A DNA stretch of 64,000 bases from Bacillota bacterium (GTDB lineage: Bacteria > Bacillota > Limnochordia > DTU080), in assembly GCA_012840225.1 (NCBI GenBank), contig DULU01000052.1, positions 20,483 to 84,482 of the forward strand, given 5' to 3'. Below the pieces are notes generated by a model. That model searched no databases. It was not told the DNA's origin and saw only the letters and a program-made list of their open reading frames with translations. Within the stretch, counting starts at the first letter, position 1, and each line of letters starts with the position of its first letter. The position numbers and the translations under genes are program-made. Below, piece after piece: positions 30,857-62,430 of the stretch.

Positions 30857-30886
30857 AACTTGGTTTTTGGCATGGAGGTGCGAGGG

Positions 30887-32269
30887 ATGAAAGAAGAGCA
30901 GCTGATGATCTTACGGATGGTGGAGGAGGGCAAGATATCGGCTGAGGAGGCGGCCGCACTTCTTGATGCTCTGTTTCGGGAAGAAGACCAGCCGGGGGCG
31001 AAAGCGGTAGAGGCCACTGAAGCGGTGAAAGCGGCAGGAGCGACGAAGGTGGCGGAGCCCAAGGAAACCGTGGAGCCGGAGGAGCCCGGGGAACCCGGGG
31101 AGCCTGGAGAACCGGAGGAGCCTGTGGAGCCCGGGGAAGACGAAGCTGGCCGCATGTATGAAGAGATAGGCGAGCGGGCCGCTCAAATCGGCGTCACCTT
31201 CGGCGAACAGTTGGGGGCGCATATGGGCCGCCTGGGAGAACGCCTGAGCCGGGAGCTTTCCGCCCAGTTGGCTCACCTGGATAAGGCTTTGCGTCCTCTG
31301 GAAAAGTGGAAAGATATAACCTTCAGAATAGAAAAAATCAAAGATGTCGATCTGGGGAGCGGCGGGCTGCTGCGGCAGGAAGTGGTGGATGAATACACCG
31401 GCGAGTTTGCTCCCGGCGCGGAGTTGGTGAGAATCAACCTGCGCACCCGCAATGGACAATTGACGGCCAGATCGTGGGAGGAGCGCGGTTATAAAGTAAT
31501 CATCCGCAAAAAAGTGGTGGTGGAATCGGCGGGCGAGACGCCGGAGGAGTTGGCGGAGAAGGCCAAAAAGGCCGTCACTTATAGTTTCGGCGACAACTAC
31601 CTGGAGGTGCGGGCCAACGAAAGCAGAGTGGTGCCGATGGTGGCCGTTGAGGTCCTGGTGCCGGATAAACATAAATACCTCCTGGAGATGCACACCATCA
31701 ATGGAGGAATCATCTGCCGGGGATTGCGGCTCAGTCAGGCTTATATCAGCACCACCAACGGCGGCGTCAATACCGAGGAGCTGTCCGGTGCCGAGATGAG
31801 GGCGGAGTCCGTCAACGGCAGCGTCCAACTGGTCGATGCCGCTTTCAACACGGTGCGCATCACCACCACCAACGGTTCCATCCGCTGGAGCGGCAGCACC
31901 GGAAAGGCGACCTTGGCGACGACGAACGGCTCCATAACTGTGAATCTGACATCTCCACCTGTGAGCGGCGTCGGCAGTCGGCCCGGCGACGACCTGGATG
32001 CCGAAGCCAAGTATAACCTCACCACCACCAACGGCAGCATCAAAGTGGAAATCGATGCAGGTATGGAAAGCCTGCCGGTGCAGTTCGATGCCGCCACTTC
32101 CCATGGCAGCATTCGCCCCATCGGCGCCTGGCAGATCACCCATGAACATAAATCCATTGGTTCCAGAACGATGAGCGGTAGAGCCGGCACCGGTAAAGGT
32201 AATGGAGAAAAACCTTTGCTGTTGACGGCCCGGACCACCAACGGCTCAATCAAATTGATACGCCCCTGA
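30887..32269 (+). CDS. DUF4097/YvlB-like beta-helical 'putative adhesin' protein
   Basis: N-terminal EQLMILRMVEEGKISAEEAAALLDAL motif, acidic PEEPGEPGEPGEPEEPVEP linker, then repeated TTNGSI(R/T/K) beta-strand units characteristic of DUF4097. Confidence 0.6.
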   Translation: MKEEQLMILRMVEEGKISAEEAAALLDALFREEDQPGAKAVEATEAVKAAGATKVAEPKETVEPEEPGEPGEPGEPEEPVEPGEDEAGRMYEEIGERAAQIGVTFGEQLGAHMGRLGERLSRELSAQLAHLDKALRPLEKWKDITFRIEKIKDVDLGSGGLLRQEVVDEYTGEFAPGAELVRINLRTRNGQLTARSWEERGYKVIIRKKVVVESAGETPEELAEKAKKAVTYSFGDNYLEVRANESRVVPMVAVEVLVPDKHKYLLEMHTINGGIICRGLRLSQAYISTTNGGVNTEELSGAEMRAESVNGSVQLVDAAFNTVRITTTNGSIRWSGSTGKATLATTNGSITVNLTSPPVSGVGSRPGDDLDAEAKYNLTTTNGSIKVEIDAGMESLPVQFDAATSHGSIRPIGAWQITHEHKSIGSRTMSGRAGTGKGNGEKPLLLTARTTNGSIKLIRP

Positions 32270-33662: not shown

Positions 33663-34463
33663 ATGATGCCTATACGACTGATAGCTATAGATATGGACGG
33701 TACCCTGCTCACCGATGACCTGCAGATTCCTTCTTCGGCCAAGGCGGCCATCGCCGCCGCCCGGGCCAGAGGGGTGCGGGTGGTGCCGGCGACGGGGCGC
33801 ATGTTCGTCTCCGCCTTGCCATATGCCAGGCAGATAGGGGCCGAAGGCCCGATCATCGCCTATAACGGCGCCAAGGTAGTCGATCTGGACGGTAGGGTGC
33901 GCAAACACCACCCGGTACCTCCGGAGGAAGCTTTGGCTTTGGTGGATCTGGCCGAGAAACATGATTTGTGCCTGCATCTTTATTTCGAGGACCAGACATA
34001 TGTACGCCGCTTCGATGAGGGAGCGCAGTATTATGCGTCCTTGGCCGGGGTGGAGCCGGTGGTCATGCCCGACCTGCGCCCGGTAGCCCGCCGGGGCACC
34101 ACGAAAGCCCTCATCGTGGACGATCCGGCGGCGGTGGAGCGGTGGTGCGGCGAATTATCCCGCCGGTTCGCCGGGCGGCTTTTGGTGACGCGCTCCCTTC
34201 CCCGCTTTGTGGAGTTCATGGCCGCAGGAGTCTGTAAAGGCGTCGCTTTGGCCGAACTGGCGGCCGAACTCGGCCTGGCTCCGGAAGAAGTGATGGCCAT
34301 CGGCGACAGTTATAACGATATAGACATGCTCACCTATGCCGGTGTCGGGGTAGCCCTCGGCAACGCCCAGCCGGCGGTGAAAGAGATGGCCGACTGGGTG
34401 AGCAGTGCCAATACCGATCACGGGGTAGCCAGAGCCATAGAAAAGTTTGTGTTGGCTTCATAG
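33663..34463 (+). CDS. Cof-type HAD-IIB family hydrolase
   Basis: IAIDMDGTLL (HAD motif I), ...ATGR..., ...GDSYNDIDML (motif IV). Confidence 0.75.
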   Translation: MMPIRLIAIDMDGTLLTDDLQIPSSAKAAIAAARARGVRVVPATGRMFVSALPYARQIGAEGPIIAYNGAKVVDLDGRVRKHHPVPPEEALALVDLAEKHDLCLHLYFEDQTYVRRFDEGAQYYASLAGVEPVVMPDLRPVARRGTTKALIVDDPAAVERWCGELSRRFAGRLLVTRSLPRFVEFMAAGVCKGVALAELAAELGLAPEEVMAIGDSYNDIDMLTYAGVGVALGNAQPAVKEMADWVSSANTDHGVARAIEKFVLAS

Positions 34464-34982
34464 ATGTGTTTAGGGCGCGGGAGTTTTATTATTTTGTTAC
34501 CGGATACCGTATACGGTATGCGCATATGGAACCATAAAAACTGGAGAAAAAGAGAGATAATGGAAGATATACAGTGTTTGGTAGAACTGGAATATAATAA
34601 ACCGCTTGATATAGCAGGACAGAGCCAAATATGCAAAGAAATAGGCAACCGGGACGACAGCAATGTCACATCCCTGTGGCATATGGCCTTGCTCTTCAGC
34701 AGTCGGGCCCGCGGCCGGGAAAGGAGGTGTTATCCCCCATCTGCCGGACGGAGGCCCTGAAGAGAAGAAGGTCGCCGGACGGAGCAAGCGACTAAGCCGG
34801 GGCGCATCAGGAAAAGGAATGAAAGGCGAGGAAACATGGACACTCCCTTTTATCGGCTGGTGCACCCCCACCTGGCAACAGATGCAGATGAAGCAAAAAA
34901 TGCCGCAGCCCCAAGGCGCAGCTGCGCCTGACGGGGCAAAGACACAGGAAAATGAACACCATCAAGGGGGATAACAAGCCAC

Positions 34983-36254
34983 ATGAAAAAATTGGTATCG
35001 CTTTTGACCGCAGTTTTGGCTCTGGCTCTGATCGGCACCATGCCTGCCGTCGCCGCCGGAGTCCTGAAGACGGACGGCAAACTTGCCGGGGAATACAAAA
35101 TACAGAACGGTAACCTGCCGGCTGCAGCCAACTTGACCACCGAGGTCAATCTGGCGGTGGAGGCTGAGGAGGAAGGCTGGCGGGCCGAGGCGGAGTTGGG
35201 TAACCTCATCGGCGGCGCGACCGCTTTGGGTGAGTATCAGATCGAGTTCCGCGATCCCAGGCTCAACCTCAGCTTCTGGGGTCTGGGCCGGGAATACCAG
35301 GAAGAGGATCTCACCGATCCATTTGAGTTCATAACCTCCGCACACAAATATATGGGCAATTTGAAGGCCCGGGCTATTGCCGGTCCGCTCACGGTGGATT
35401 TTGAGGACGACGGCGAGTTCTTCGTGTTCGGCGAGAAAGAGATCGCCGGGCAGACCCTCGGTATCGCCGCCCACCACAAATTGCCCTTGAGCAACGGCTT
35501 CACCGCTTTAGGCTACGACCGCATCAACCTGGCCGGTGTAGAGCTGACTGCCGGTGTGGGTGTCAACACCAAAGCCACCGCTCCCTCAGATCTGGCCTAT
35601 GCGGTGAAAGCCGAGGTGCCGGTACCTGTGGTGCCGGAACTGAAAGCTATCGCCCAGTTTAAGATCCAGCCGGCCGGCTTCAACGGCGCCGATGAAAAGG
35701 AAATCAAGCTGGAAGGCGTGCATGAGACGGACTTGCTGAAAGTGAACGGTTCATTCGCCAACGCCATGTCCAATACCACCGGAGCATTCAAACAGAATGT
35801 AGTGGAAGCCACAGCAGAGTGGCGTGGGGCCAAAGGCGAGCTGGACTGGGACGAGCAGTTTGAGAGCGATGAATACTTCAAGAACACGGCTCCTGCCGTC
35901 CGGGCGCAGCTCAACCGCACCACCACTCCGGGCGACGTGGTCGCTACCAAAATAGCCGTGACCGGCACCTCGCCCATCATTCCCGGACAGGTCTGGGTGC
36001 TCGGCAGCCTGGTTAATGAACCGGAAGCCAAGCGCACGGAGATCAAGGGCGACGGTTATATCAAGATGAGTGAAAAGATCATCCTGGAACCGGGTGTACG
36101 CTATGAGAAGGCTCCGGTCGAAACCATGGAGCTGATCGGCAAGGCCACCTATCAGATGAATGAAAACGGTAAAGTATGGGCCAAATATGCCCAGAAAAAC
36201 ACCGGAGGCACGAGGAACGACGAGATCAGCGCCGGATACGAAGTGCTGTTTTAA
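34983..36254 (+). CDS. Predicted outer-membrane beta-barrel protein (paralog A; signal peptide, C-terminal Y-x-V-L-F)
   Basis: Sec signal peptide MKKLVSLLTAVLALALIGTMPAVAAG. Beta-rich alternating composition. C-terminus ISAGYEVLF with terminal Phe and hydrophobics at -3/-5/-7. RBS AAGGGGGATAA is shared with the paralogs. Confidence 0.6.
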   Translation: MKKLVSLLTAVLALALIGTMPAVAAGVLKTDGKLAGEYKIQNGNLPAAANLTTEVNLAVEAEEEGWRAEAELGNLIGGATALGEYQIEFRDPRLNLSFWGLGREYQEEDLTDPFEFITSAHKYMGNLKARAIAGPLTVDFEDDGEFFVFGEKEIAGQTLGIAAHHKLPLSNGFTALGYDRINLAGVELTAGVGVNTKATAPSDLAYAVKAEVPVPVVPELKAIAQFKIQPAGFNGADEKEIKLEGVHETDLLKVNGSFANAMSNTTGAFKQNVVEATAEWRGAKGELDWDEQFESDEYFKNTAPAVRAQLNRTTTPGDVVATKIAVTGTSPIIPGQVWVLGSLVNEPEAKRTEIKGDGYIKMSEKIILEPGVRYEKAPVETMELIGKATYQMNENGKVWAKYAQKNTGGTRNDEISAGYEVLF

Positions 36255-36332
36255 TCGGACAGCGGTTTTCAGCCGGCGTTTGCTCCGGACCCAATAATAA
36301 AATAAATATAGAAAATAACAGAAATAGTGGTG

Positions 36333-36374
36333 AGAGCACCTGCACCGGTCGGCGCAGGTGCTCTTTCTTCTTTT
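36333..36374 (+). terminator. Rho-independent terminator
   Basis: AGAGCACCTGC-accggtcggc-GCAGGTGCTCT followed by TTCTTCTTTT. Confidence 0.65.
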
Positions 36375-36893
36375 CAGCTTTCAGCTTCCCTCAGCCGTCA
36401 GTTTCCCTCCGCTTATCTTTAATCTATGTTTTTATTGGTTTTATAGTTAAAAATTGCAATTGGCCGGAAGGAATTGGCGTTATCATGATGAAATATCGTA
36501 TAACTTCTGCAGCCGGATATGGGTACGAGGGGAATAAAAATAAAGTATGTAAGGTAATCCTTACATCCCTTGACGGGAAGCGATAAATTTACCAAAAAAG
36601 GCAGCGAACCAGCAGGAAAACGAGGATATTAGTAAAAACATACAAGGTGCATAGAGGGCGAAGGCTATAAGTCCGGATTAACTGGCGGTAGGGAAAGGAG
36701 GTGCACCCCGAGGTTTACCGCGAGTGCAGTGAATCACCGGACATAGCGGGGGGCTGGATGCCGGTAACGAAAGCGTCTGCTGTTCACTAATGGTAACAAG
36801 GTCACTTTAGTGAAGATATGGCGCTGTGTCCGGCCGGCAGTAAACATACGCATGCTCCTCTTAATAAATGAAAAAACTAAGGGGGTTCTATAA

Positions 36894-38240
36894 ATGAAGA
36901 AGCTAGTATTAGCTCTATGTCTAGTGCTGACATTGAGTGTGGCGGCATATGCCGACACCACAGTTGAGGTGGGTATTACCGGACAGGTCAAGTGGGATGC
37001 CAACGTAGCTCAGAAAGACGATCCCGGCTATGGGAGCCAACCGGTCCTCAAGGTAACAAGCAAGGGAACCGGCTGGACGGCCTCTTTTGATACCTTCTAC
37101 AACCGCTTCAAGCTCCAGGGCAGCGAAGGCCCGTTGAGCGTAGCGGTATGGGGAGGCTTTGGTCCCAGCGGTTTGGGCGTGGCGAGCTATGAGCGTGTAT
37201 CGCCCGTAGTCCGTCCGGACAGCACGTTCAACTGGATCCAGGGCGCTCAGGATTCCAATGCGAGCAACTGGAGATTCCGCACCGTATATAACCATAGCCT
37301 GGCCAAGTTGACCCTGGACTACGATAATCAAAGCGACCAAGCCATCCTGGCGGCTGAGAAGACCATCTCCGGCTTCGCTTCCGGTATTGGTGTCCAGCGT
37401 TCTACCAACCCGACCAAGGACGAGTCCGTCTTCGCCGCTTGGACCAGCGGCAAGATCGCCGGTGCGACGGTGGTCGGCGTAGGTGCCATCCAGGCGGTCA
37501 ACGGCGACACCAAGGATCGTACCAGCGTCGGTGTCAAAGCCACCTATACCATTCAGCCGATCAACGTCACGGCCATGGGTTACTTCATGGTGCGCGGCAA
37601 GAGCTTCGGCAATGTCACCACCGGTTATATCGAAGGTTCCAAGAACATCATCAACAACCTTGGCAACCTCTATGGTTACTTCAAGTATGATAAAAATGCT
37701 ACCACTGATGTCGTCACCACCAACATCTATGGTCGTCTGCGCCTGCGCGGCGATACCGGATCCGCGTTCAACTGGAACCTGGTAGACGGTTACACCAGGG
37801 ATCGCAGCTGGCTCAAGGTGAAGACCTACTCCAGCCAGTTCTACGTCCAGAGAACCCAGGCGGGTGATAAAGTCAGCCTGTTCAGGTTCTATGGCTTAGG
37901 CGTGGTTAAGTTGGATGTGGCCAAAGGTCTGTGGGTCCGTCCCGAGATCTACATCGAGCCCATCGCCAATGCTAACAAGGACAAGAGAACACTCGTCAAT
38001 GGCAATGCTTATCTGCAGCTGACCGACCGGGTCTTTGCCGAGGCGACCGGACAGTATCAGAATAGGAGCCAGGATGACAATCCTTCCAATAACTTCAGCG
38101 TTTCCATCGGCTTCTCCGCCGATCCGGTAACCGTGCATCTGGAGCCCACCAAGCGGGTAACGTTGAAGGTCGAGTCTTCGACCAGCACCGCCAATGTGAC
38201 CACCAATTCGGCTACGCTGAACTACCTCCTGGTCTTCTAA
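36894..38240 (+). CDS. Predicted outer-membrane beta-barrel protein (paralog B)
   Basis: Signal peptide MKKLVLALCLVLTLSVAAYA. ~55% identical to paralog C over its length (shared blocks QRSTNPTKDESV..WTSGKI, GRLRLRGD.GS...W.LVD.YTR, GLWVRPE.YIEP, LVNGNAYL.LTDRV). C-terminus ATLNYLLVF. Confidence 0.65.
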   Translation: MKKLVLALCLVLTLSVAAYADTTVEVGITGQVKWDANVAQKDDPGYGSQPVLKVTSKGTGWTASFDTFYNRFKLQGSEGPLSVAVWGGFGPSGLGVASYERVSPVVRPDSTFNWIQGAQDSNASNWRFRTVYNHSLAKLTLDYDNQSDQAILAAEKTISGFASGIGVQRSTNPTKDESVFAAWTSGKIAGATVVGVGAIQAVNGDTKDRTSVGVKATYTIQPINVTAMGYFMVRGKSFGNVTTGYIEGSKNIINNLGNLYGYFKYDKNATTDVVTTNIYGRLRLRGDTGSAFNWNLVDGYTRDRSWLKVKTYSSQFYVQRTQAGDKVSLFRFYGLGVVKLDVAKGLWVRPEIYIEPIANANKDKRTLVNGNAYLQLTDRVFAEATGQYQNRSQDDNPSNNFSVSIGFSADPVTVHLEPTKRVTLKVESSTSTANVTTNSATLNYLLVF

Positions 38241-38279
38241 TCGTCAAGATTTAGAAACAGAGGATAGAAACTTCAAAAT

Positions 38280-38390
38280 AGAACCGCTGTAGCCTGTGCT
38301 GCAGCGGTTCTATTTGTTTAGCGCTCTTCGACCATAACTACTTATCCTTGTAGCAGCACCGGTGCTCATAGCCGGTGCTTTTCTTTTTTT
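38280..38390 (+). terminator. Two tandem intrinsic terminator hairpins
   Basis: GAACCGCTG...CAGCGGTTC + TATTTGTTT (38281-38320), and GCACCGG-tgctcatag-CCGGTGC + TTTTCTTTTTTT (38355-38390). Confidence 0.6.
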
Positions 38391-38748
38391 AGCCCTTGGC
38401 AGCAGTTGGGATAGTTAATAGTAATATCCAGGCACAGCATGCGCAGAAAAGAAGGAAAACAGGGAAATGCAAAGAAACAATGATATACAAGAATGCATTA
38501 CAGGCGGAAAGCTTGGCTGTACTGGCGGTGGAGAAAGGAGGTGTTCCCCACAAGTTGGCCGCAAGGGCAGTGATCGCCAAGCTGAAGCGGGGAGCACGGT
38601 ATTAAGGAAAATGAAGGTTGGGGCAGCAGTCGGTGTGGTCTGGAAGGAAACTTGGACACTTTCAGCGGCAGCCGGTGCCGCCACAGCCGACCATAAGACA
38701 TTTACCTGCTCCTCCTATAGATGAAGCAACAACTTAGGGGGTTTATTG

Positions 38749-40086
38749 ATGAAGAAGTTAGCATTAGCATTATGCTTGGTGTTGACCTGCAGTTTCCTGG
38801 CGTATGCCGAGACTGAGGTGAAAGTCGGGGTAGCCGGCGAGACCACCTGGACACCGGGCGCCATCGTGAAGACCGACGGACAAGGTTTAGTGCTGAAAGT
38901 GAACAGCAAGGGAGAAGGATGGACGGCAACGTATGACTCCATGACCCAGCGCTATAAGATCCGGGCCGGTGAAGGTCCCTTGCGCGTTGATCTCTGGGGT
39001 GCGGACAATGGGAATAAAATCCCGGAGCGTTTGTCCTATTTGCGGTCGGATTCCAACCTGAACTATATTCAGGGTAGTCAGGATTCCGCCGACAACAACT
39101 GGAAGATGCGCGTGAGCTACGACCATGACCTGGCCGACCTGGTCCTGGATTACGACAATGCCACCAACCAGGCTATCTTGGCGGCGCAGAAGAAAATCGC
39201 CGGCTTTGATTCCGCAGTGGCTATCCAGCGTTCCACCGATCCGACCAAAGATGAATCCATCATCGGCGGTTGGACAAGCGGTAAAATCGGTCCGGTGGGC
39301 GTAGTCGGCGTGGCCGCCGTGAAAGCCAACAACGGCGATACCACCGACGCCATGAGCATCGGTGCCAAAGCGACGTACACCATCAAGCCGCTAGATATCA
39401 ACACCATGGCTTATGTCTCCAAGCGCGGCAAGAATTTCGGCGATGTCACCACCCTTTACGCCGAAGCTTCGAAGAACATCATCAACGGTCTGGGTAATCT
39501 CTATGCTAAGGTGCAAAACGACACCAAAGCTTCCGACGGTACCGTCACCAACACCGTATATGGACGCGTCCGCCTGCGTGGCGACAGCGGCAGCAGCTAT
39601 GACTGGGATCTGGTCGACACCTACACCAGGCAGCTCGACTGGTTGAAGACCAAGACTTATGCCGGTCAGGTTTATGCCCAGAACACCACGACCAACGGGC
39701 AGACCACTCTGCAGCGGCTGTATGGTATTGCCACCGTCAAGATGGATGTCGGCAACGGCCTGTGGGTCAGACCCGAAGTCTATATTGAGCCGGTAAACTC
39801 CATCGACAAGAATACCGGTAAAGCGGTGACCAGAACGCTCGTCAACGGCAATGCTTACCTGAAGCTCACCGACCGGGTCTCCTTGGAGTCCAATGTCTCC
39901 TTTGAAAACAGGAACACCTTCACCAAGGGTCCGAGGACTGCGTATGGCGCCGCCGTCGGTTTCCAGATGGATCCCACGGATGCCCACATCCAGTCCGACA
40001 AGCAGGTTAAGCTGGCCTATAACTCCAGCACCGTGGACGAAGTGACCAACAACACCGCCACTTTGAGCTATATGCTGGTCTTCTGA
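38749..40086 (+). CDS. Predicted outer-membrane beta-barrel protein (paralog C)
   Basis: Signal peptide MKKLALALCLVLTCSFLAYA. C-terminus ATLSYMLVF. RBS TAGGGGGT 6 nt upstream of the ATG. Confidence 0.65.
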   Translation: MKKLALALCLVLTCSFLAYAETEVKVGVAGETTWTPGAIVKTDGQGLVLKVNSKGEGWTATYDSMTQRYKIRAGEGPLRVDLWGADNGNKIPERLSYLRSDSNLNYIQGSQDSADNNWKMRVSYDHDLADLVLDYDNATNQAILAAQKKIAGFDSAVAIQRSTDPTKDESIIGGWTSGKIGPVGVVGVAAVKANNGDTTDAMSIGAKATYTIKPLDINTMAYVSKRGKNFGDVTTLYAEASKNIINGLGNLYAKVQNDTKASDGTVTNTVYGRVRLRGDSGSSYDWDLVDTYTRQLDWLKTKTYAGQVYAQNTTTNGQTTLQRLYGIATVKMDVGNGLWVRPEVYIEPVNSIDKNTGKAVTRTLVNGNAYLKLTDRVSLESNVSFENRNTFTKGPRTAYGAAVGFQMDPTDAHIQSDKQVKLAYNSSTVDEVTNNTATLSYMLVF

Positions 40087-40167
40087 TAAGAAGATATTGC
40101 AGTTAGCCAAACAGATGGCCAAAGGGATTGCGAGGCTCTGGCCATAAGGCCATAGTCCTCCTGAAGT

Positions 40168-40212
40168 AAACCGCCGCCGCCGCAGCTGCTGCTGCGGCGG
40201 TTGGCGTTTGGG
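40168..40212 (+). terminator. Intrinsic terminator-like GC hairpin
   Basis: AACCGCCGCCGCCGCAGC-TGCT-GCTGCGGCGGTT followed by GGCGTTTGGG. Confidence 0.5.
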
Positions 40213-40289
40213 TGGATAGGCATAGCCGGCTGAGTTGTGTGGCGGCCGATTTGGGTCAAATGGAAATGGGGTGGGTGCTCATTTGCCTG

Positions 40290-40319
40290 TTGACGGGGGA
40301 ATAGGAGTAGTGGTATAGT
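40290..40319 (+). promoter_or_regulatory. Sigma-A-like promoter (TTGACG-N18-TATAGT) upstream of the 40453 gene
   Basis: -35 TTGACG (40290-40295), 18-nt spacer, -10 TATAGT (40314-40319), followed by an AT-rich ~130-nt leader. Confidence 0.45.
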
Positions 40320-40452
40320 AAAACTAACGTACTGATTGTCTTTGGGGAACAGATACAAAGATATTAAAAATAAATATAACCAAATAACTAACCTACATAA
40401 GCGGGGCGAAAGAGTGAGCGGAGCAAACCGGTCAGGCTGTCGGCAGCTTCTC

Positions 40453-42039
40453 ATGCTCATAAAGATCTTTTGGGTAGTGCTTGTTATGTCCGCTGTCGTG
40501 GTGTGGCGGGCGAAAGCGGCAGAGGTGCATGGCACGCTGGCACTGGAGGGCAGCTACAATCGCTTTACCGGGTGGCGATTTGCGGAAAGCGAAGCGAAGG
40601 TGACTTATAAGCCGGCTTGGTGGCGGAATGCCGAGTTGGCCATAACCTTCAAAGACAGCCGGGCAGCTCTGGGCTATAAGTGGCTCCTGGAAGATAAGGT
40701 TTGGCGCATCGCCACCTGGCAGGGGGTCTGTCGGGAGAGCGGTTGGCGGGATCCTTTTTCTTTGGTGTCGCTCAGCGGCGTTCCGGTGGCCCCTTGGCGC
40801 CTGCGCCTGGAGCACAAAACTTGGGGTCTTGGGAGCGATCTGGCCCCCTCGCATCATGCTCTGCACTGGCGGAAGAGTATGGGAAAAATGCGTATCGGCC
40901 TGCTTTTTACAGGTAGCGGTGCTGCGGCGGCGTCCTTACCTGACGACGATGAAGATGATGATGGGGAAAGTGATGAGCAAATCGGCGGCGATGGCGATGA
41001 TGAAGATGCCGATGATAACGGCAGTGTTGCCGCCGGAAGCTTATTCGGCGTAATATATGCCCGCTATGATAACGGCGGTTGGTATGGTGCTTTTTCGCTC
41101 GCCGGGAGCCGGGCGGGCGGGAGAGAAGCCGGGAGCGACGGCCAAACGCGGGGCGCTTATGCTTTTGAGCTCAGGCATAGAAGTGATCGCTTCTATATTT
41201 CCCTGGCGGATAAATATAAAGAAGCCGGCTTCAAAAATCCTGATAAACCCCTCAGCCGGGTAAGCAAATTCCGGGTAGGCTGGAGGATTGGAAATTTCAC
41301 CCTCTTCCTGGAGGAGAGGATAGAGGAGGAAGGTAAGCGGAAAAGATGGCAGGAACTGGCTTTGGGTGTGCGTCCCAAGGCCAGGGCCGGCCCCCTGTCT
41401 ACCTTGATCACGGAGCGCCTGGTGGCCGCCGGGGGACCACTCTCCTGGTTGGTGCGCTGGGAAAGGTTGGTAGCGCCATCTTCCCGGTGGACCATGCAGG
41501 TGGAAGTGCGCGGCCCCTGGCGATCCGGCAGCCAGGGTGATAGCCAAGGCGGCAGCCAGGGTGGCAGCCAAGGTGGTAGCCAAGGTGGTAGCCAAGGCGG
41601 CAGCCAAGGTGGTAGTCAGGGTGGCAGTCTGGGCGGCAGTCTGGGCGGCGGCTGGGGCTGGCGGCTGGTTTTGGCCGAAAACAGGGATACCTGGCTCAAC
41701 TGGTATGTCACCTTGCCGGGCGGGAAGAGGGTGCTCACCAAATATTCGGTAATGGCCTGGAAGACGGCCATTCTCTACCAGTTGGTGCTCCCCGGAGGCC
41801 GGCAAGTGGGAGGTGAGTTGGCCGGCGGCGCCGAATACCGGGACCGTGACCCACCGGCAGTCCCACCTGCTCTTATGATCAGCGGTACCTGGTGGTCATG
41901 GAAGGTGAAGGCCGCCAAAAAACTGAATGACCGGATAACGCTCGCTTGGGAATATGAGCACCTATATGCCGATGATCTGCCGGCCGGGGCGGTCTGGCGC
42001 GAAAGTGGGCAAAAATGGCATTTGCTGTGGCAGTTTTAA
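40453..42039 (+). CDS. Secreted beta-rich protein with (GGSQG)n and acidic tracts, C-terminal beta-signal-like ...LLWQF (putative OM protein)
   Basis: Signal-like MLIKIFWVVLVMSAVVVWRAKAAEV. Poly-acidic DDDEDDDGESDEQIGGDGDDEDADDNG. Ten-plus GGSQG repeats. Terminal Phe with W at -3 and L at -5. The start is uncertain (ORF opens at 40336). Confidence 0.5.
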   Translation: MLIKIFWVVLVMSAVVVWRAKAAEVHGTLALEGSYNRFTGWRFAESEAKVTYKPAWWRNAELAITFKDSRAALGYKWLLEDKVWRIATWQGVCRESGWRDPFSLVSLSGVPVAPWRLRLEHKTWGLGSDLAPSHHALHWRKSMGKMRIGLLFTGSGAAAASLPDDDEDDDGESDEQIGGDGDDEDADDNGSVAAGSLFGVIYARYDNGGWYGAFSLAGSRAGGREAGSDGQTRGAYAFELRHRSDRFYISLADKYKEAGFKNPDKPLSRVSKFRVGWRIGNFTLFLEERIEEEGKRKRWQELALGVRPKARAGPLSTLITERLVAAGGPLSWLVRWERLVAPSSRWTMQVEVRGPWRSGSQGDSQGGSQGGSQGGSQGGSQGGSQGGSQGGSLGGSLGGGWGWRLVLAENRDTWLNWYVTLPGGKRVLTKYSVMAWKTAILYQLVLPGGRQVGGELAGGAEYRDRDPPAVPPALMISGTWWSWKVKAAKKLNDRITLAWEYEHLYADDLPAGAVWRESGQKWHLLWQF

Positions 42040-42304
42040 TCTCCGGACAGCGAATGGATTTTTTCGTCAGAAGCAGGGATTAAACCGATTTTCACCAAAT
42101 CATCCATTAAAGCAGGAAGGCGGCGGGTGATGGCGAAATATCGGTATGTGCCCCGGTGTGTGCGTTGCACCGAGCACCGGGCGGATTGCCGGCCTGCCGT
42201 TTTAGAGACGGAGATCAAGGCAGTAGAGCCCTGAACAGGACTCAGGTTCAGGGGTGCCAAGAATGAGTCTCGGCTGTAAGGCCGAAAGGAGGAGGAGCCA
42301 CGCT

Positions 42305-43414
42305 GTGGCACAAGTAATTCTTCAACATGTTACCAAGAGATTTGGTAACGTCATCGCTGTCAACGACGCTACTCTTGAAGTCAGGGACCGGGAATTTATG
42401 GTTTTGGTAGGTCCGTCAGGTTGCGGTAAGTCTACCACCTTGCGCATGGTAGCCGGGTTGGAGGATGTCACCGAAGGGAATATTTATATCGGTGAGACTC
42501 TGGTAAACAACATCCCGCCCAAAGACCGGGACATTGCCATGGTGTTCCAGAACTATGCTCTATACCCGCATATGGACGTATACAACAACATGGCTTTCGG
42601 TCTGAAGCTGCGCAAGTTCCCCAGAGCGGAAATCGATCGCCGGGTGCGTGAGCATGCCCGCCTGTTGGGCATCGAAAACTTGCTCGACCGCAAGCCGACC
42701 CAGCTCTCCGGCGGCCAGAAGCAGCGCGTGGCCGTAGGTCGGGCTATTGTGCGTGAGCCCAAGGTGTTCTTGATGGACGAGCCTCTGTCCAACCTGGACG
42801 CTTTGCTCCGGGTGCAGATGCGCGCCGAGCTTTCCAAGATTCATGCCCGCTTGCAGACCACTGCTATTTACGTGACCCACGACCAGACAGAAGCCATGAC
42901 CATGGGCGACAGGATCTGCGTGCTGAAAGACGGCGTCATTCAGCAGGTGGGACCGCCGCTGGAGATCTATGATCATCCGGTTAATGTCTTCGTCGCCGGC
43001 TTCATCGGCAACCCGCCCATGAACTTCGTCAACGGCTTCCTGAAGAAGGAAGGCGACAACTACATCTTCGATGCCAACGGCGCCTTCAGGGTGACCATCC
43101 ATCCGGACCGGGCGCGGCAGATCAAGAATATCGGCGCCTATGTCGACAAGGAAGTGATCCTGGGCATCAGGCCTGAGGATATCGACGATGCCAAAATTCA
43201 TCCCGGCGACGAGAGCAATACGGTAATTGCCATGGTCGACGTGGTCGAGCCGATGGGTGCCGAAAGCCTGATCTACCTGTCGAAAGGCGAAGCCCAGCTG
43301 GTGGCCAAAGTCGACCCGCACAGTGATGCCGAGGACGGAGTGGAGCATCCGGTGCGCCTGAACATGAAGAAGGTCCATATCTTCGACAAGGATACCGAGC
43401 AAGTCGTGGTGTGA
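42305..43414 (+). CDS. msmX: Sugar ABC transporter ATP-binding protein (MsmX/UgpC/MalK type)
   Basis: Near-identical core to B. subtilis MsmX (FMVLVGPSGCGKSTTLRMVAGLE...AMVFQNYALYPHM.VY.N.AFGLKLRK...LSGGQKQRVAVGRAIVREP). Solitary ATPase, as msmX often is. GTG start with AGGAGG upstream. Confidence 0.85.
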   Translation: MAQVILQHVTKRFGNVIAVNDATLEVRDREFMVLVGPSGCGKSTTLRMVAGLEDVTEGNIYIGETLVNNIPPKDRDIAMVFQNYALYPHMDVYNNMAFGLKLRKFPRAEIDRRVREHARLLGIENLLDRKPTQLSGGQKQRVAVGRAIVREPKVFLMDEPLSNLDALLRVQMRAELSKIHARLQTTAIYVTHDQTEAMTMGDRICVLKDGVIQQVGPPLEIYDHPVNVFVAGFIGNPPMNFVNGFLKKEGDNYIFDANGAFRVTIHPDRARQIKNIGAYVDKEVILGIRPEDIDDAKIHPGDESNTVIAMVDVVEPMGAESLIYLSKGEAQLVAKVDPHSDAEDGVEHPVRLNMKKVHIFDKDTEQVVV

Positions 43415-49496: not shown

Positions 49497-49567
49497 ACGG
49501 GTGGAGAGAAGAGCAACCTGAGGCGCGGCGTGCAACCTGGTGCGCAATCTGCTGAGTAGTGTTGAGT

Positions 49568-49624
49568 GGTGGGCAATCTGATGAGCGGTGGGCAATATGA
49601 TGAGCGGTGGGCAATATGATGAGC
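49568..49624 (+). repeat. 3 x 19-bp tandem repeat (GGTGGGCAAT[A/C]TGATGAGC) spanning the tsaD translation start
   Basis: Three tandem copies directly visible. The last copy contains the tsaD ATG codons. Confidence 0.8.
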
Positions 49625-50626
49625 GGCGAGTTATTGCTGGGAATTGAAACAAGCTGTGATGAGACAGCGGCAGCGGTGGTGGCGGAGGGGCGCACCATAC
49701 TTTCCAATGTAGTGGCCTCGCAAATTGACCTGCACCAGAAATGGGGCGGGGTGGTGCCTGAAGTGGCGAGCAGGCAGCATGTGGAAGCCATCATGCCGGT
49801 GATCGACAAAGCACTGAAAGATGCCGGAACGACGCCGGACAAGCTGGCCGCGATAGCGGTCACCTGCGGTCCCGGTCTGGTGGGAAGCCTGCTGGTCGGA
49901 TTGTCGGCGGCCAAAGCCCTGGCGTTTAGCGCCGGGAAGCCGCTGATCGGTGTCAACCATATTGAAGGCCACATTTACGCCAATTTTCTGGCGCACCGGG
50001 AAGTGACGGCGCCTTTGGTCTGCCTGACCGTGTCGGGCGGGCATACCAATCTGCTATATATGCCGGAGCCGGGTGTATATAAGGTGATGGGGCGGACCCG
50101 TGACGATGCGGCCGGAGAAGCATTAGATAAAGTCGGGCGGGTGATGGGGCTCCCATATCCGGCCGGAGCGCATATCGACCGGCTGGCCAGGGAGGGGAAG
50201 CCGGGAGCGGTGCAGCTGCCGCGAGGGCTGCTCGAGGGTCTGGATTTCAGCTTCAGCGGGCTGAAGACCGCCGCCATCAATTACCTGCATAATGCCGCCC
50301 AGCGGCATGAGGAAGTGAATATGGCCGATTTTGCCGCCGGCCTGCAGGAGGCGGTGGTCGATGTGCTGGTGGCGAAGACCATGCATGCCGCCGAACAGGT
50401 CGGGGTGGATATCATCATCATGTCGGGCGGGGTGGCCGCCAATACCCGCCTGCGCCGGCGTTTGCGTGAGGAAGCTGAAAGCGCCGGCAAACGCCTTTTT
50501 TACCCCCCGGTGGAGCTTTGCACCGACAACGCCGCCATGATCGCCAGCGCCGGCTATTTTCGCTACCGGCGCGGGGAATACGCTGATCTAACCTTAAACG
50601 CCGAACCCTCCCTGCGGCTGGAATAA
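49616..50626 (+). CDS. tsaD: tRNA N6-adenosine threonylcarbamoyltransferase TsaD (Kae1/YgjD)
   Basis: LLLGIETSCDETAAAVV...HIEGH...SGGVAAN motifs. The start lies within a tandem repeat, so the exact initiation codon is ambiguous (GTG 49607 / ATG 49616 / ATG 49619). Confidence 0.9.
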   Translation: MMSGELLLGIETSCDETAAAVVAEGRTILSNVVASQIDLHQKWGGVVPEVASRQHVEAIMPVIDKALKDAGTTPDKLAAIAVTCGPGLVGSLLVGLSAAKALAFSAGKPLIGVNHIEGHIYANFLAHREVTAPLVCLTVSGGHTNLLYMPEPGVYKVMGRTRDDAAGEALDKVGRVMGLPYPAGAHIDRLAREGKPGAVQLPRGLLEGLDFSFSGLKTAAINYLHNAAQRHEEVNMADFAAGLQEAVVDVLVAKTMHAAEQVGVDIIIMSGGVAANTRLRRRLREEAESAGKRLFYPPVELCTDNAAMIASAGYFRYRRGEYADLTLNAEPSLRLE

Positions 50627-50635
50627 TCCGGAAAT

Positions 50636-50700
50636 CCCTCCTAACCTCCTAATCTCCTAATCTCCTGACCTCCTAACCTCCTGACCTCCTGACTTCCTGT
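50636..50700 (+). repeat. Tandem heptamer array (CCTCCTRA / TCTCCTAA, ~9 units) downstream of tsaD
   Basis: cctcctaacctcctaatctcctaatctcctgacctcctaacctcctgacctcctgacttcct. The complement is an array of AGGAG(G) Shine-Dalgarno-like units. Confidence 0.7.
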
Positions 50701-50955
50701 CCCCCTACCCTTCTGCCCTCCAGCCCTGCCCTACCCACCTCCCCGGAGCTGAGAATATATAAATTATTCTAACCGTCTTCTTCCTTAAAGAAGGAATAGG
50801 CTACCGTCTGTGGAAAAACCAACAAAGTCCACCCAAACGGTCAGTGATCAGAGTCGAAGGCTGTCTCATCGGGAAACATGGGGCCTTTTATCTGGACTGG
50901 GCTTGAGAATATAGGGAATAACGCAAGTTTCAATATTTTATGAGGGGGAACGGAG

Positions 50956-55115: not shown

Positions 55116-56537
55116 TTATTCGTTCTTCGCCTTCAGTATCTTCTCACGGTAATTCGTCATCTGCTTCTCCAGATAATTAACAAGCAAATTGTAGCCGGTG
55201 AGATCCCGCAAAGGCGCCCATGGAATAGCCTGCTTTATCTTCTCCGTTATTCTGGCCAGGCTCAAGTCCTCCCACCTGAAGATAAGGAGCGTTATATTTC
55301 TTTCATTGCAGATCTTCTGCTTGGTCTTATCCAGCCTCTTCTGCTTGGCTACTGCCGATTGATTATATAGATCGGTCGCCCGATAATGCTGCTCTCCGTT
55401 GAACTCGCAGGCCACATTCTGCTTTTCATAATAGCGGTCGAAGTGCATCTGCTCATGAGTATATGGATTCTTTAAAAAATCGGGTGTGGCATTGTCGACG
55501 CCGTTATCCCACTCCAGGATCAGATTTAGGGCCTCCCGCATCAGAGCTTCGCCACGGAATTTGGCCCGGTAGAGATTGTGCTCTGCCTTCAGCATCTTGA
55601 TCCTTACCGGGTTGCTGATATAAAACAGCTTATCTTTCGTCTTTTTCATGGTGCGGATGTCGATCCACTCTTCATCGCGCAGTTTGAACAAAGCTCGGCG
55701 TACCGTCTTAACATTCAAGTAGAGCATCTTGGCAATACTGGTATATGTATAGGTGGCTTCACGGGAGCTGCGCTTATATTTCGGCAAGGTTTGCAAGGTG
55801 CCATATATCAATCTGGCCTGCGCACCTAGACGCGTATCATTGACCAAATCAACCGGTATATAAACCTTCTTGCAATAATTGTAACGCGGCGTGAAAATCG
55901 TGGCGGCTAAAGCCTGGCGGCGCTCCCGAGCCTGAGCCTGGATTTGGGCCTGGATCTGAGCTAACTGTGCCTGGAACTGCTCCTCGTTCAGTACCTGAGC
56001 CTGATTTATTTCCTGAGCTTGAGCCTGTGTTTGGAGGCCTTGATTGCCGACCTGTGGTGGGAATGGCGGGAGCTGCGTCTGTGCTTGATGCCAGGCATTG
56101 ACCTGACCTTGGATGGGAGGTTGGCTTTTCATTTGGGGATCATTTTGTATCGGGTAGAATGCTTGAGGGGGAGTGGGATGAGAAGGAGTATGGATTGACT
56201 GCGTATGGGTTGACTGCACCGGCGGTTTGATCCAGATCTCCGGCTGCACCAACCACTTGTGGATATAGAGCTGGGAAAGAGCACAGCATACAGTAGGCTT
56301 GGACAACCCGATTCGCTCAGCTATCCTTGCCGGGCAATAGAGCTGATCAGGATCAATGCGGGCATCGTTGACATCCAAGGCTAAAGCCATCCAAACCAAT
56401 TTGGCCGAATTGGACAAATCTGGCTCCAGCAGGAGGTCTTTTGGCACCCACACCACTTTATTAATATTGATGATTTTGCTTGCCATAAAGCAACCACGCT
56501 CCGATTCCCCGGCATGGCTGCGCGCAAGCGTTCTCAT
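55116..56537 (-). CDS. Foreign-looking protein: two tandem winged-HTH domains, Gln-rich linker, C-terminal DUF559/Vsr-like (restriction-endonuclease-fold) domain
   Basis: Two homologous HTH modules (residues ~20-95 and ~215-300). Q/A-rich coiled linker QAQAQEINQAQVLNEEQFQAQLAQIQAQIQAQARE. C-terminal CEFNGEQHY...D...K...L...G..LLIFRWEDL resembles the E-x-D-G-x-Q-H...R(F/I) pattern of DUF559/Vsr-like nucleases. Local GC is ~45-50% versus ~62% in the flanks. Confidence 0.6.
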   Translation of the reverse strand: MRTLARSHAGESERGCFMASKIININKVVWVPKDLLLEPDLSNSAKLVWMALALDVNDARIDPDQLYCPARIAERIGLSKPTVCCALSQLYIHKWLVQPEIWIKPPVQSTHTQSIHTPSHPTPPQAFYPIQNDPQMKSQPPIQGQVNAWHQAQTQLPPFPPQVGNQGLQTQAQAQEINQAQVLNEEQFQAQLAQIQAQIQAQARERRQALAATIFTPRYNYCKKVYIPVDLVNDTRLGAQARLIYGTLQTLPKYKRSSREATYTYTSIAKMLYLNVKTVRRALFKLRDEEWIDIRTMKKTKDKLFYISNPVRIKMLKAEHNLYRAKFRGEALMREALNLILEWDNGVDNATPDFLKNPYTHEQMHFDRYYEKQNVACEFNGEQHYRATDLYNQSAVAKQKRLDKTKQKICNERNITLLIFRWEDLSLARITEKIKQAIPWAPLRDLTGYNLLVNYLEKQMTNYREKILKAKNE

Positions 56538-62346: not shown

Positions 62347-62430
62347 GTTTTCTGCTTATCTGCTTATCTGCTTATCTGCGTACCTGCTTATCTGTGTACC
62401 TGCTCATCAGCGCATCTACTCATCACTCAT
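62347..62430 (+). repeat. Degenerate tandem octamer array (CTGCTTAT-like, ~10 units) between convergent groEL and the minus-strand OM-like gene
   Basis: ctgcttatctgcttatctgcttatctgcgtacctgcttatctgtgtacctgctcatcagcgcatctactcatcactcatctacttat. Confidence 0.6.

What the first reader, a model, noticed from the sequence alone, without database searches (positions are those of the whole stretch)
40453..42039. Fourth putative OM/secreted protein with (GGSQG)n tandem repeat, poly-acidic tract and C-terminal ...LLWQF
Downstream of the porin-like trio is a 560-aa protein with an N-terminal hydrophobic signal. It has Trp-rich beta-like segments and a long poly-Asp/Glu stretch (DDDEDDDGESDEQIGGDGDDEDADDNG, a possible cation-binding region). 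It also has 10+ perfect GGSQG repeats encoded by a 15-bp DNA tandem repeat (41530-41650), and ends in a beta-signal-like C-terminus with terminal Phe. The 15-bp DNA repeat is a likely site of length variation. A sigma-A-like promoter (TTGACG-N18-TATAGT) with a long AT-rich leader precedes it.
Basis: seen in the sequence. Interest (0 to 1): 0.5.

Follow-up and report, generated by a model that had tools for sequence, protein, structure and literature searches.

The report
Orphan outer-membrane-like protein, variable repeat
This is a real but rare gene from an uncultured biogas-reactor bacterium that most likely encodes an outer-membrane beta-barrel protein carrying a strongly acidic insert and a glycine/serine/glutamine repeat whose length differs between strains. 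It is a modest curiosity rather than a new kind of system.

Summary
The ORF is real. It is intact in three near-identical strain assemblies, and two lineages carry positional orthologues at about 25% identity, each followed by the same MalK/UgpC-like ATPase gene.

Three details were wrong. The repeat has a 12-bp, 4-residue unit (7 GSQG, 1 DSQG, 2 GSLG; 41527-41652), not 15 bp or GGSQG. The given coordinates encode 528 aa, not 560. The likelier start is GTG 40414 (541 aa).

One prediction held: a strain lacks exactly two repeat units (41554-41577). The orthologues lack the repeat but keep an acidic insert at the same site.

An outer-membrane barrel is therefore the best reading (about 0.55) but is not shown, and the host's outer membrane was not demonstrated. 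Function is unknown. I infer a low-abundance channel or receptor with a charged insert and a variable surface loop. Interest is modest.

The parts
40163..40200 (+). G+C-rich hairpin (CCGCCGCCGCAGC-TGC-TGCTGCGGCGG) followed by TTGGCGTTT, just after the third porin-like gene. It is a probable terminator that separates the target from the trio.
   Evidence: Read from the sequence. The terminator scan flags the same hairpin on the minus strand only, at 40186-40173.
40290..40319 (+). Sigma-70/SigA-type promoter-like site: -35 TTGACG (40290-40295), 18-nt spacer, TG, -10 TATAGT (40314-40319).
   Evidence: 10 of 12 matches with an extended -10 TG, the best site in 34400-42400. Promoter-like sites are no more frequent there than in shuffles, and no equivalent site is found upstream of the orthologues.
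40320..40413 (+). AT-rich untranslated leader (32% G+C) with no significant structure and no Rfam match.
   Evidence: G+C; fold z-score -0.16; no Rfam family.
40414..42039 (+). Coding sequence from the preferred GTG start (541 aa). The ORF opens at TTG 40336.
   Evidence: SD-like GGGG lies 7 nt before the GTG and none lies before the ATG. Among all six frames, the annotated frame has the best codon score. The ORF is intact in L005 and L006. Orthologues P0002 and P0004 have clear GGAGG sites.
40453..40518 (+). Signal-peptide core: MLIK, hydrophobic stretch IFWVVLVMSAVVVW, then RAKA before a predicted cleavage in front of AEV.
   Evidence: Read from the sequence. Both orthologues have an equivalent hydrophobic N-terminus ending A|E. 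No signal-peptide predictor was available.
40702..40812 (+). Best-conserved N-terminal block: WRIATWQGVCRESGWRDPFSLVSLSGVPVAPWRLRLE. The family consensus is LWGGxxSEKGWxDPxxLVxLSG...RLRLE.
   Evidence: Alignment A1: invariant W89 G91 E95 W98 D100 L104 L107 G109 R116 L117 R118.
40942..41022 (+). Poly-acidic insert DDDEDDDGESDEQIGGDGDDEDADDNG (17 of 27 residues are D/E). It lies in a 40-residue segment that AF2 leaves unstructured.
   Evidence: Both orthologues have an acidic insert at the same alignment site, containing 2 and 4 Cys respectively.
41527..41652 (+). In-frame tandem repeat of ten 12-bp units encoding GSQG, DSQG, GSQG x6, GSLG x2, then GG.
   Evidence: The orthologues have no tandem repeat. 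At this site they have 4 and 7 residues against 41 here.
41554..41577 (+). 24 bp (two repeat units) that are present in the window and L006 but absent from strain assembly L005.
   Evidence: three-way DNA alignment. One search reports gene products of 520 and 565 aa.
41677..41748 (+). Conserved block directly after the repeat: ENRDTWLNWYVTLPGGKRVLTKYS. The family consensus is ESRNGRLNWWYTRPxGxRALTSxS.
   Evidence: Alignment A1. This block supplied the peptide pattern used by the locus scans.
42007..42036 (+). C-terminal amphipathic strand GQKWHLLWQF with terminal Phe, resembling a beta-signal.
   Evidence: All three upstream genes end in ...LVF or ...VLF. The orthologues end in alternating hydrophobic residues with a terminal Leu.

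Best explanation
The region holds a genuine, independently transcribed gene, most likely 40414-42039. It belongs to a very small, fast-evolving protein family known only from a few uncultured Bacillota lineages from anaerobic digesters.

The product is exported by a Sec-type signal peptide. It is built almost entirely of long antiparallel beta hairpins and most likely inserts into an outer membrane as a beta-barrel. It would be a low-abundance companion of the three strongly expressed porin-like proteins encoded just upstream.

Two low-complexity inserts interrupt the beta meander:
- A poly-acidic segment is ancestral to the family. I infer that it acts either as a charged plug or constriction against the very basic rest of the protein (net +22 without it), or as a periplasmic linker between an N-terminal module of about 130 residues and a 16-strand C-terminal barrel.
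- A (Gly-Ser-Gln-Gly)n segment is unique to this species. It arose by expansion of a 12-bp unit inside an originally tight Gly-rich turn. It gains and loses whole units in frame by slippage or recombination, so it changes loop length and never switches the gene off.

Shown: gene reality, conservation of position, the anatomy of the inserts, and the copy-number polymorphism.
Inferred: barrel fold, membrane location, topology, and any channel, receptor or cation-binding role.
For: Gene reality:
- The ORF is intact in the window, L005 and L006, and the only indel is in frame.
- The annotated frame scores best of the six frames for codon usage.
- An exhaustive phmmer search of 1.84 billion representatives finds two full-length relatives: P0002 (E 1e-10) and P0004 (E 1.5e-5).
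- In both loci the relative sits after a no-Pfam gene and before the same MalK/UgpC-like ATPase gene. In L001 that upstream gene is a trio homologue, and the downstream order (PGI, MazEF, GATase, asparaginase II) matches the window, apart from an extra ROK gene.
- Both relatives have GGAGG ribosome-binding sites.

Export:
- All three family members have a hydrophobic N-terminus ending A|E.
- The orthologues have paired Cys in the inserts, which fits an extracytoplasmic location.

Beta-barrel:
- AF2 predicts 28 strands and almost no helix.
- Hydrophobicity alternates within those strands: 0.41 against 0.27 +/- 0.04 in 500 shuffles, none of which reached the observed value.
- The top 47 of the 50 listed Foldseek PDB hits are membrane beta-barrels, mostly bacterial outer-membrane porins and transporters.
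- The C-terminus has an alternating hydrophobic pattern ending in Phe, like the three upstream genes.
- A model of the neighbouring gene g3 (pLDDT 52.8) also matches mainly barrels.

Surface exposure:
- All SNPs and indels among five strain assemblies over 13.3 kb fall in the four-gene cluster and intergenic spacers (all but one of these between the cluster genes). None fall in the flanking housekeeping genes.
- Four of the five substitutions in the target are non-synonymous.
- Target and trio orthologues are 23-26% identical, while flanking orthologues are 50-82% identical.

Repeat:
-.

Low expression relative to the trio:
- The trio have AGGGGG ribosome-binding sites and codon scores of 0.25-0.46. 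The target scores 0.02 and has only a weak SD.

Hint of an outer membrane in the host:
- A CsgG-family lipoprotein lies at 57479-58288 on the minus strand (PF03783, E 7e-8, above the gathering score).
- Diderm Limnochordia are abundant in digesters (PMC11456536). The host's class was not determined.
Against: - The AF2 model is poor: mean pLDDT 43, pTM 0.37, and the N-terminal 200 residues are below 50. Foldseek TM-scores are only 0.17-0.29 on the query.
- The alignment behind the model has three sequences.
- No outer-membrane biogenesis gene (BamA, Lpx, Lpt, OmpM) was seen in the 64-kb window or in the ~7.4 kb examined upstream of it.
- The host is known only as 'Firmicutes/Bacillota bacterium'.
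- The terminal aromatic residue is not conserved in the orthologues.
- There is no sequence match to any porin or OMP family in Pfam, NCBIfam or PDB.
- The strand count of the model (27-28) is ambiguous, so which side of the membrane each insert faces cannot be fixed.
- The alternating-hydrophobicity test used strands predicted from the same sequence, and any beta-sheet protein would pass it.
Confidence: 0.55

Rival explanations
1. It is an exported but soluble or cell-wall-associated beta-rich protein (periplasmic, S-layer-associated or secreted). It is not a membrane-embedded barrel, and the low-complexity tracts are flexible linkers between beta domains.
For: - The structure model has low confidence.
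- The host's outer membrane is not demonstrated.
- The protein is unusually charged for a barrel: 64 K/R and 59 D/E in 506 mature residues.
- The N-terminal strands are short, at 4-11 residues.
- The window encodes CsaB, TagA and DUF5693, which make cell-wall polymer for anchoring surface proteins.
Against: - There is no SLH, LPXTG, LysM or other wall-anchoring domain.
- C-terminal strands of 10-15 residues joined by 2-4-residue turns are typical of transmembrane barrels.
- The fold hits are almost all membrane barrels.
- The last strand is amphipathic and ends in Phe, as in the neighbouring porin-like genes.
Confidence: 0.2
2. It is a highly diverged fourth paralogue of the upstream porin-like genes. 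On this reading it is the same family and the same general diffusion function, simply decorated with inserts.
For: - It has the same orientation and lies immediately downstream.
- All four genes carry a signal peptide and end in Phe.
- A motif recurs at a similar distance from the N-terminus: (L/V)WG ... DPF/DSxF ... W(K/R)xR.
- hhalign of the two family alignments gives 60% probability and E 8.5e-5 over residues 8-152.
- The tandem arrangement of trio-like gene then target is conserved in L001, and L002 has the same layout with a no-Pfam upstream gene.
Against: - With the signal peptides removed, the hhalign probability falls to 4%.
- BLASTP between the target and each trio member gives E above 1.
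- Composition differs sharply: W is 5.9% against 1.4-2.0%, and R is 7.8% against 2.8-4.5%.
- The orthologues P0002 and P0004 form their own family, distinct from the trio-like gene in the same locus.
Confidence: 0.15
3. It is a decaying or non-functional ORF. On this reading it is a spurious long ORF in G+C-rich DNA, or a gene drifting under relaxed selection, and the repeat is a neutral microsatellite.
For: - The ATG has no clear SD.
- GC3 is 0.64, against 0.71-0.81 for the neighbours, and codon adaptation is the weakest in the cluster.
- Four of five strain substitutions are non-synonymous.
- The word-index search found no full-length copy. Exact look-ups of the 520-aa call and an M-start version of the 565-aa call also failed.
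Against: - A 541-567-codon ORF is kept open in three strain assemblies with only an in-frame indel.
- Gene callers did call it in L005 and L006.
- Full-length orthologues of the same size, position and domain order exist at 25% identity, with strong ribosome-binding sites.
- About 70 invariant columns, including 10 Trp, are spread along the whole alignment.
- The annotated frame scores best of the six frames.
Confidence: 0.07

Closest known systems
General and specific outer-membrane porins of Gram-negative bacteria (OmpF/Omp32/PorB, OccD/K, LamB/ScrY)
   Same: - It has a signal peptide, an all-beta meander of long antiparallel strands, and an alternating hydrophobic last strand ending in Phe.
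- An acidic internal loop set against a basic barrel wall is how the constriction of classical porins is built (established knowledge of OmpF loop L3).
- It lies next to a MalK-type ATPase gene, as lamB lies next to malK in E. coli (my own knowledge, analogy only).
   Different: - There is no sequence match to any porin family.
- At 506 mature residues it is larger than a 16-18-strand porin.
- It has 5.9% Trp.
- The acidic segment is a 27-residue low-complexity tract rather than a structured L3.
- The host is a Bacillota lineage.
- Trimer formation and channel activity are unknown.
OmpM of diderm Firmicutes and SlpA of Deinococcus (outer-membrane tether-porins; PMC10628300, PMC9388160)
   Same: - It comes from a candidate diderm member of the Terrabacteria.
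- Its possible architecture is an N-terminal periplasmic module, then a linker, then a C-terminal barrel. Counting the strands after the acidic tract gives 16, the number in the OmpM barrel.
   Different: - There is no SLH domain and no coiled-coil stalk (Pfam).
- The N-terminal module is beta-rich and matches no known domain.
- The two-domain reading rests on a model with pLDDT 43.
In-frame tandem-repeat (VNTR-type) surface proteins of bacteria, whose repeat copy number varies between strains
   Same: The short coding repeat has a unit length divisible by three. Copy number differs between closely related strains (10 units against 8) while the flanks are identical.
   Different: - This is not a phase-variable contingency locus, because changes stay in frame and cannot switch expression off.
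- The repeat encodes a featureless Gly/Ser/Gln segment rather than a folded repeat domain.
- Only two alleles have been observed.

Membership tests
Outer-membrane beta-barrel protein (generic OMP class) | N-terminal Sec signal peptide | tested here: met
   The N-terminus has a hydrophobic stretch of 14 residues followed by RAKA|AE. The two orthologues show an equivalent feature. This was judged by eye because no predictor was available.
Outer-membrane beta-barrel protein (generic OMP class) | Closed barrel formed by an even number of amphipathic antiparallel strands | tested here: inconclusive
   AF2 predicts an all-beta meander of 27-28 strands, but at pLDDT 43 and pTM 0.37. The fold hits are almost all membrane barrels, but weak. 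Hydrophobic alternation exceeds all 500 shuffles.
Outer-membrane beta-barrel protein (generic OMP class) | C-terminal beta-signal: alternating hydrophobic residues with a terminal aromatic | tested here: inconclusive
   The target meets it (W-x-L-x-W-x-F). The orthologues keep the alternation but end in Leu. The trio-like gene of L001 also ends in Leu.
Outer-membrane beta-barrel protein (generic OMP class) | Host has an outer membrane and a BAM machinery | not testable with these tools
   Only about 71 kb of the source contig was seen, and it holds no BamA, Lpx, Lpt or OmpM genes. The host is named only Firmicutes/Bacillota bacterium. The one hint is a CsgG-family lipoprotein.
Classical porin families (Pfam Porin_1, Porin_4, OprD, LamB, OprB and others) | Significant match to the family HMM | tested here: not met
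   There is no Pfam hit at E <= 1 for the target, P0004 or the trio. P0002 has only a sub-threshold DUF5632 hit (E 0.07). NCBIfam gives nothing, and the family profile gives no PDB sequence hit at E <= 10.
OmpM / SlpA tether-porins | N-terminal SLH domain followed by a coiled-coil stalk and a C-terminal barrel | tested here: not met
   Pfam finds no SLH domain. AF2 predicts no long helix.
The upstream porin-like trio (g1 34983-36254, g2 36894-38240, g3 38749-40086) | Detectable sequence homology outside the signal peptide | tested here: not met
   BLASTP gives E above 1. hhalign gives 60% probability with the signal peptide and 4% without it.
Phase-variable contingency locus (simple-sequence-repeat switch) | Repeat changes shift the reading frame or alter promoter spacing, switching expression on and off | tested here: not met
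   The unit is 12 bp and lies inside the coding sequence. The observed variant differs by 24 bp and stays in frame.
Length-variable in-frame coding tandem repeat (VNTR type) | Copy number differs between otherwise near-identical strains | tested here: met
   L005 is 99.5% identical over 13.3 kb and lacks exactly 41554-41577. The window and L006 have it. Read-level confirmation was not possible.
Calcium-binding acidic repeats (thrombospondin type 3 / DxDxDG type) | Match to the repeat HMM or a regularly spaced DxDxDGxxDxxD motif | tested here: not met
   Pfam gives no hit. DEDDDGESD fits DxDxDGxxD once, which is expected in a tract that is 63% acidic. Cation binding remains an untested inference.

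The most novel reading that the evidence does not exclude
The gene may found a previously undescribed family of outer-membrane proteins restricted to an uncultured, digester-dwelling branch of diderm Bacillota. Its architecture would be new: an N-terminal periplasmic beta module, a poly-acidic (in relatives Cys-bridged) linker or plug, and a 16-strand barrel. The linker or plug might bind divalent cations or polyamine-modified cell wall, which would make the protein an SLH-independent tether or gated channel. The hypervariable Gly-Ser-Gln surface loop would be under selection from phages.
Probability: 0.12. Interest if true: 0.55.

Novelty: new variant of a known kind. Interest (0 to 1): 0.3.

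Why it matters
If the barrel reading holds, this gene and the three upstream genes sample the almost unexplored outer-membrane proteome of uncultured diderm Bacillota, which are abundant in biogas reactors. None of the four matches any curated protein family. The cluster is also the only place in 13 kb where co-occurring strains differ. That marks it as a likely interface with phages or other selective agents, and as a practical strain marker through the 12-bp repeat. It does not reveal a new type of system or mechanism, and its function remains inferred.

Tried and rejected
- The word-index homology search with the whole protein found nothing. Low-complexity words probably filled the 8000-candidate list. 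Repeating it with a low-complexity-free alignment recovered only P0002.
- Genome-collection and metagenome-collection scans with the family alignment returned only the P0002 lineage again (L003, L009). The family could not be deepened beyond three lineages.
- Exact look-ups of the 520-aa gene call and of an M-start version of the 565-aa call found them absent from the protein collection. Repeat number could therefore not be surveyed in more strains.
- Relationship to the upstream trio: the first hhalign result (60%) looked promising, but it collapsed to 4% once the signal peptides were trimmed. I do not claim homology.
- Pfam, NCBIfam, PHROGs, PADLOC and PDB sequence searches gave nothing for the target.
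- Rfam searches at gathering and E-value thresholds gave nothing credible in the leader, and the leader fold is no better than shuffles. I rejected a riboswitch or structured leader.
- The second AF2 job went to the neighbour g3 to test whether the cluster encodes barrels. It reached only pLDDT 52.8, so it adds little.
- Attempts to see more of the source contig for outer-membrane markers: three look-ups failed on start-codon choice. One succeeded but showed only housekeeping genes.
- Taxonomy: the Campanaro et al. supplement lists the P0002 MAG only as 'Firmicutes sp.'. An accession search in the literature found nothing.
- Topology of the two inserts: counting strands from the C-terminus gives opposite answers depending on whether 426-429 and 432-446 are one strand or two. 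I report this as undetermined.
- Regional conservation is flat at about 25-30% everywhere, so it does not discriminate one-domain from two-domain architectures.
Full report
**1. What is in the sequence**

A single long + strand ORF runs from 40336 to 42039. That ATG has no Shine-Dalgarno sequence. The in-frame GTG at 40414 has GGGG seven nucleotides upstream. The N-termini of the two orthologues also align upstream of the ATG (CRQLLMLIK against RRLLAQIR). I therefore prefer 40414 as the start, giving 541 aa.

The following observations hold:
- The hydrophobic N-terminus reads MLIKIFWVVLVMSAVVVWRAKA|AEV.
- Trp is 5.9% of residues, against 1.4-2.0% in the three upstream genes and 0.4-0.5% in SecA and UvrA.
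- The acidic tract DDDEDDDGESDEQIGGDGDDEDADDNG lies at 40942-41022, with 17 of 27 residues acidic.
- The C-terminus is ...GQKWHLLWQF.
- The promoter-like TTGACG-N18-TG-TATAGT site lies at 40290-40319.
- A 94-nt leader of 32% G+C follows it.
- A G+C-rich hairpin at 40163-40200 follows the previous gene, so the target looks like its own transcription unit.

The promoter is the best match in 8 kb. Promoter-like sites are no more common there than in shuffled sequence, and the orthologous loci have no equivalent. It is plausible but not proven. The leader has no significant fold and no Rfam match.

**2. The repeat was mis-described**

Tandem Repeats Finder reports a period of 12 with 10.3 copies at 41526-41649. 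In codon register the tract reads GSQG DSQG GSQG x6 GSLG GSLG GG at 41527-41652. The unit is four residues and 12 bp, with seven perfect copies. The DNA copies differ at synonymous third positions.

**3. Is it a real gene?**

Yes, on four grounds:
- The locus was recovered from several biogas-fermenter and JGI metagenome assemblies (L005-L008). L006 differs from the window at 15 positions in 13.3 kb, and L005 is 99.5% identical. In both, the ORF is intact and was called as a gene.
- The annotated frame has the best codon-usage score of all six frames. The score (0.02) is well below that of the upstream trio (0.25-0.46).
- An exhaustive phmmer search of 1.84 billion representative proteins found two full-length relatives, P0002 (523 aa, E 1e-10) and P0004 (564 aa, E 1.5e-5). 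It also found an 85-residue fragment identical to the C-terminus. The remaining hits matched only the repeat.
- Both relatives are positional orthologues. In L001 (MAG DUQB01000087, 'Bacillota bacterium AS08sgBPME_369') the order is: trio-like gene(s), P0002, MalK/UgpC-like ATPase, ROK kinase, PGI, MazE/MazF, GATase, asparaginase II, TsaE/B, RimI, TsaD. That matches the window downstream of 42254, apart from the ROK gene. L002 shows an upstream no-Pfam gene, then P0004, then the same ATPase. Both orthologues have GGAGG ribosome-binding sites.

The three sequences share about 70 invariant columns along their whole length, including ten tryptophans.

**4. The inserts in evolutionary context**

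All three family members carry an acidic insert at the same alignment position. In P0002 it holds two cysteines and in P0004 four (C..DDPL..C). In the target it holds none.

The Gly-Ser-Gln repeat is different:
- The orthologues have no tandem repeat.
- At that site they have 4 and 7 residues against 41 in the target.
- The repeat is therefore a recent, species-specific expansion of what was a short Gly-rich turn.

A three-way DNA alignment shows that L005 lacks exactly 41554-41577, which is two units. Because the unit is divisible by three, variation changes loop length only. It is not an on/off switch.

**5. Fast evolution of the whole four-gene cluster**

- Across five strain assemblies, every SNP and indel in 13.3 kb lies in g1, g2, g3, the target or intergenic spacers, all but one of which lie between the cluster genes. 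The flanking Cof phosphatase, ATPase, PGI, MazEF and GATase genes have none.
- In the target, four of five substitutions are non-synonymous.
- Between the window and L001, flanking orthologues are 50-82% identical. The target and the trio-like proteins are 23-26% identical.

This is the pattern expected of exposed envelope proteins, although relaxed constraint would also produce it.

**6. Fold**

No curated family or solved structure matches by sequence:
- Pfam, NCBIfam, PHROGs and PADLOC give nothing.
- The family profile gives no PDB hit.

AlphaFold2 on the three-sequence alignment gives a low-confidence model (mean pLDDT 43, pTM 0.37; the C-terminal third reaches 60-72). It is made almost entirely of antiparallel hairpins. 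Strands after the acidic tract are mostly 10-15 residues long and joined by 2-4-residue turns. Both low-complexity tracts lie in unstructured connections.

Evidence bearing on a barrel:
- Hydrophobicity alternates within the predicted strands more than in any of 500 shuffles (0.41 against 0.27 +/- 0.04). This test is not independent of the prediction, and any beta-sheet protein would pass it.
- The top 47 of the 50 listed Foldseek PDB matches are membrane beta-barrels, mostly bacterial outer-membrane porins and transporters, at query TM-scores of 0.17-0.29.
- A model of the neighbour g3 (pLDDT 52.8) behaves the same way.

The barrel reading is therefore consistent and is the best available, but it is not established.

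Counting strands after the acidic tract gives 16 if 426-429 and 432-446 are one bulged strand. That topology puts the long connections, including the repeat, outside the cell. It puts the short turns in the periplasm, and leaves residues 23-155 plus the acidic tract as a periplasmic module and linker. If those segments are counted as two strands, the sides swap. Regional conservation is flat and does not decide. I report the topology as open.

**7. Relationship to the upstream trio**

- g2 and g3 are 51% identical.
- g1 and the L001 416-aa protein link to them weakly (E 2e-10 to 3e-6).
- The target family shares a (L/V)WG ... DPF ... W(R/K)xR motif at a similar position. hhalign gave 60% probability over residues 8-152.
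- With signal peptides trimmed, the probability is 4%.

I do not file the target with the trio.

**8. Host**

The sources are anaerobic-digester metagenomes. The NCBI names are only 'Firmicutes/Bacillota bacterium', and Campanaro et al. list the L001 MAG as 'Firmicutes sp.' (PMC7038595).

The window carries typical Bacillota housekeeping genes and a raiA RNA. No outer-membrane biogenesis gene is seen in about 71 kb. A CsgG-family lipoprotein at 57479-58288 on the minus strand passes the Pfam threshold. Limnochordia, a diderm Bacillota class, dominate many digesters (PMC11456536). That makes a diderm host plausible, but I could not place this lineage.

**9. Mechanism proposed**

The steps below are marked as shown or inferred:
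- Export by Sec: the signal peptide is shown by sequence.
- Insertion as a barrel: inferred.
- Low expression relative to the trio: inferred from the weak SD and poor codon adaptation.
- The mature protein is very basic without the acidic tract (64 K/R against 42 D/E), and the tract adds 17 negative charges. By analogy with the acidic loop and basic wall constriction of classical porins, the tract may fold back as a charged plug or constriction, possibly bridged by cations. Alternatively it may be a periplasmic linker. Both are inferred.
- The Gly-Ser-Gln loop is a flexible segment that varies in length by unit slippage. The variation is shown. Its location and any role in evading phages are inferred.

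**10. Verdict**

The feature is an orphan, fast-evolving, probably outer-membrane protein. It is a new sequence family of a familiar kind, carries a confirmed in-frame repeat polymorphism, and is of modest interest.

Noticed in passing
window 34711-34735, 36685-36709, 38525-38549 (plus a second box near 34830, 36790, 38640): Each of the three porin-like genes has a long upstream spacer (about 500-640 nt) carrying a shared conserved element. The core is GCGG-N3-GGAAAGGAGGTG-N2-4-CCCC, and a second invariant box reads GGAAAC..GG.CACT. The element is absent upstream of the target and matches no Rfam family. It may be a common leader RNA or a leader peptide.
   Followed up: partly
window 34983-42039 compared with L005-L008: All strain differences over 13.3 kb fall in the four envelope-protein genes and in intergenic spacers, nearly all of them between those genes. 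g2 in L005 carries 15 non-synonymous changes, 7 synonymous changes and a 3-bp deletion, with a cluster of changes around 37012-37023. The flanking housekeeping genes are identical.
   Followed up: partly
window 57479-58288 (-): A lipoprotein with an LLSGC lipobox matches Pfam CsgG (PF03783, E 7e-8, 32 bits, above the gathering score). CsgG is normally an outer-membrane lipoprotein family, so this is a hint that the host is diderm.
   Followed up: no
window 62427-63761 (-): A 444-aa protein with a hydrophobic N-terminus has no match in Pfam, PHROGs or PADLOC. Its sequence is rich in aromatic and alternating beta-like segments, so it may be another envelope protein.
   Followed up: partly
window 56810-57276: A 168-nt unit is repeated 2.8 times in tandem (85% matches, TRF score 647). 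It overlaps a doubtful 200-codon minus-strand ORF. Its nature is unknown.
   Followed up: no
window 49563-49626; 50637-50721; 62351-62417; 63903-63979; 14430-14510: There are several other short tandem repeats: a 19-nt unit x3.4 across the tsaD start region, CCTCCTAA x7.8 after tsaD, a 16-nt unit x4.2, a 12-nt unit x6.5, and CTGCCG x12 inside the DUF5693 gene.
   Followed up: no
window 6797-7101 (+): A raiA RNA (RF03072, 143 bits) lies between the comF-like genes and the hpf/secA region.
   Followed up: no
window 13152-18445 (+): This cluster encodes an LmeA-like lipid-binding protein, DUF5693, a CsaB-type polysaccharide pyruvyl transferase and a TagA/WecG glycosyltransferase. These are the enzymes that make pyruvylated cell-wall polymer for anchoring SLH-domain proteins.
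   Followed up: no
window 30860-32269 (+), repeat at 31050-31137: A LiaX/LiaG-like envelope-stress protein carries a Pro-Glu-Gly-rich 9/18/27-bp coding repeat near its N-terminus. This is another low-complexity coding repeat in an envelope-related gene.
   Followed up: no
window 55116-56537 (-): A 473-aa protein has two weak winged-helix HTH matches and a long Gln/Pro-rich low-complexity middle section. No family was assigned.
   Followed up: no
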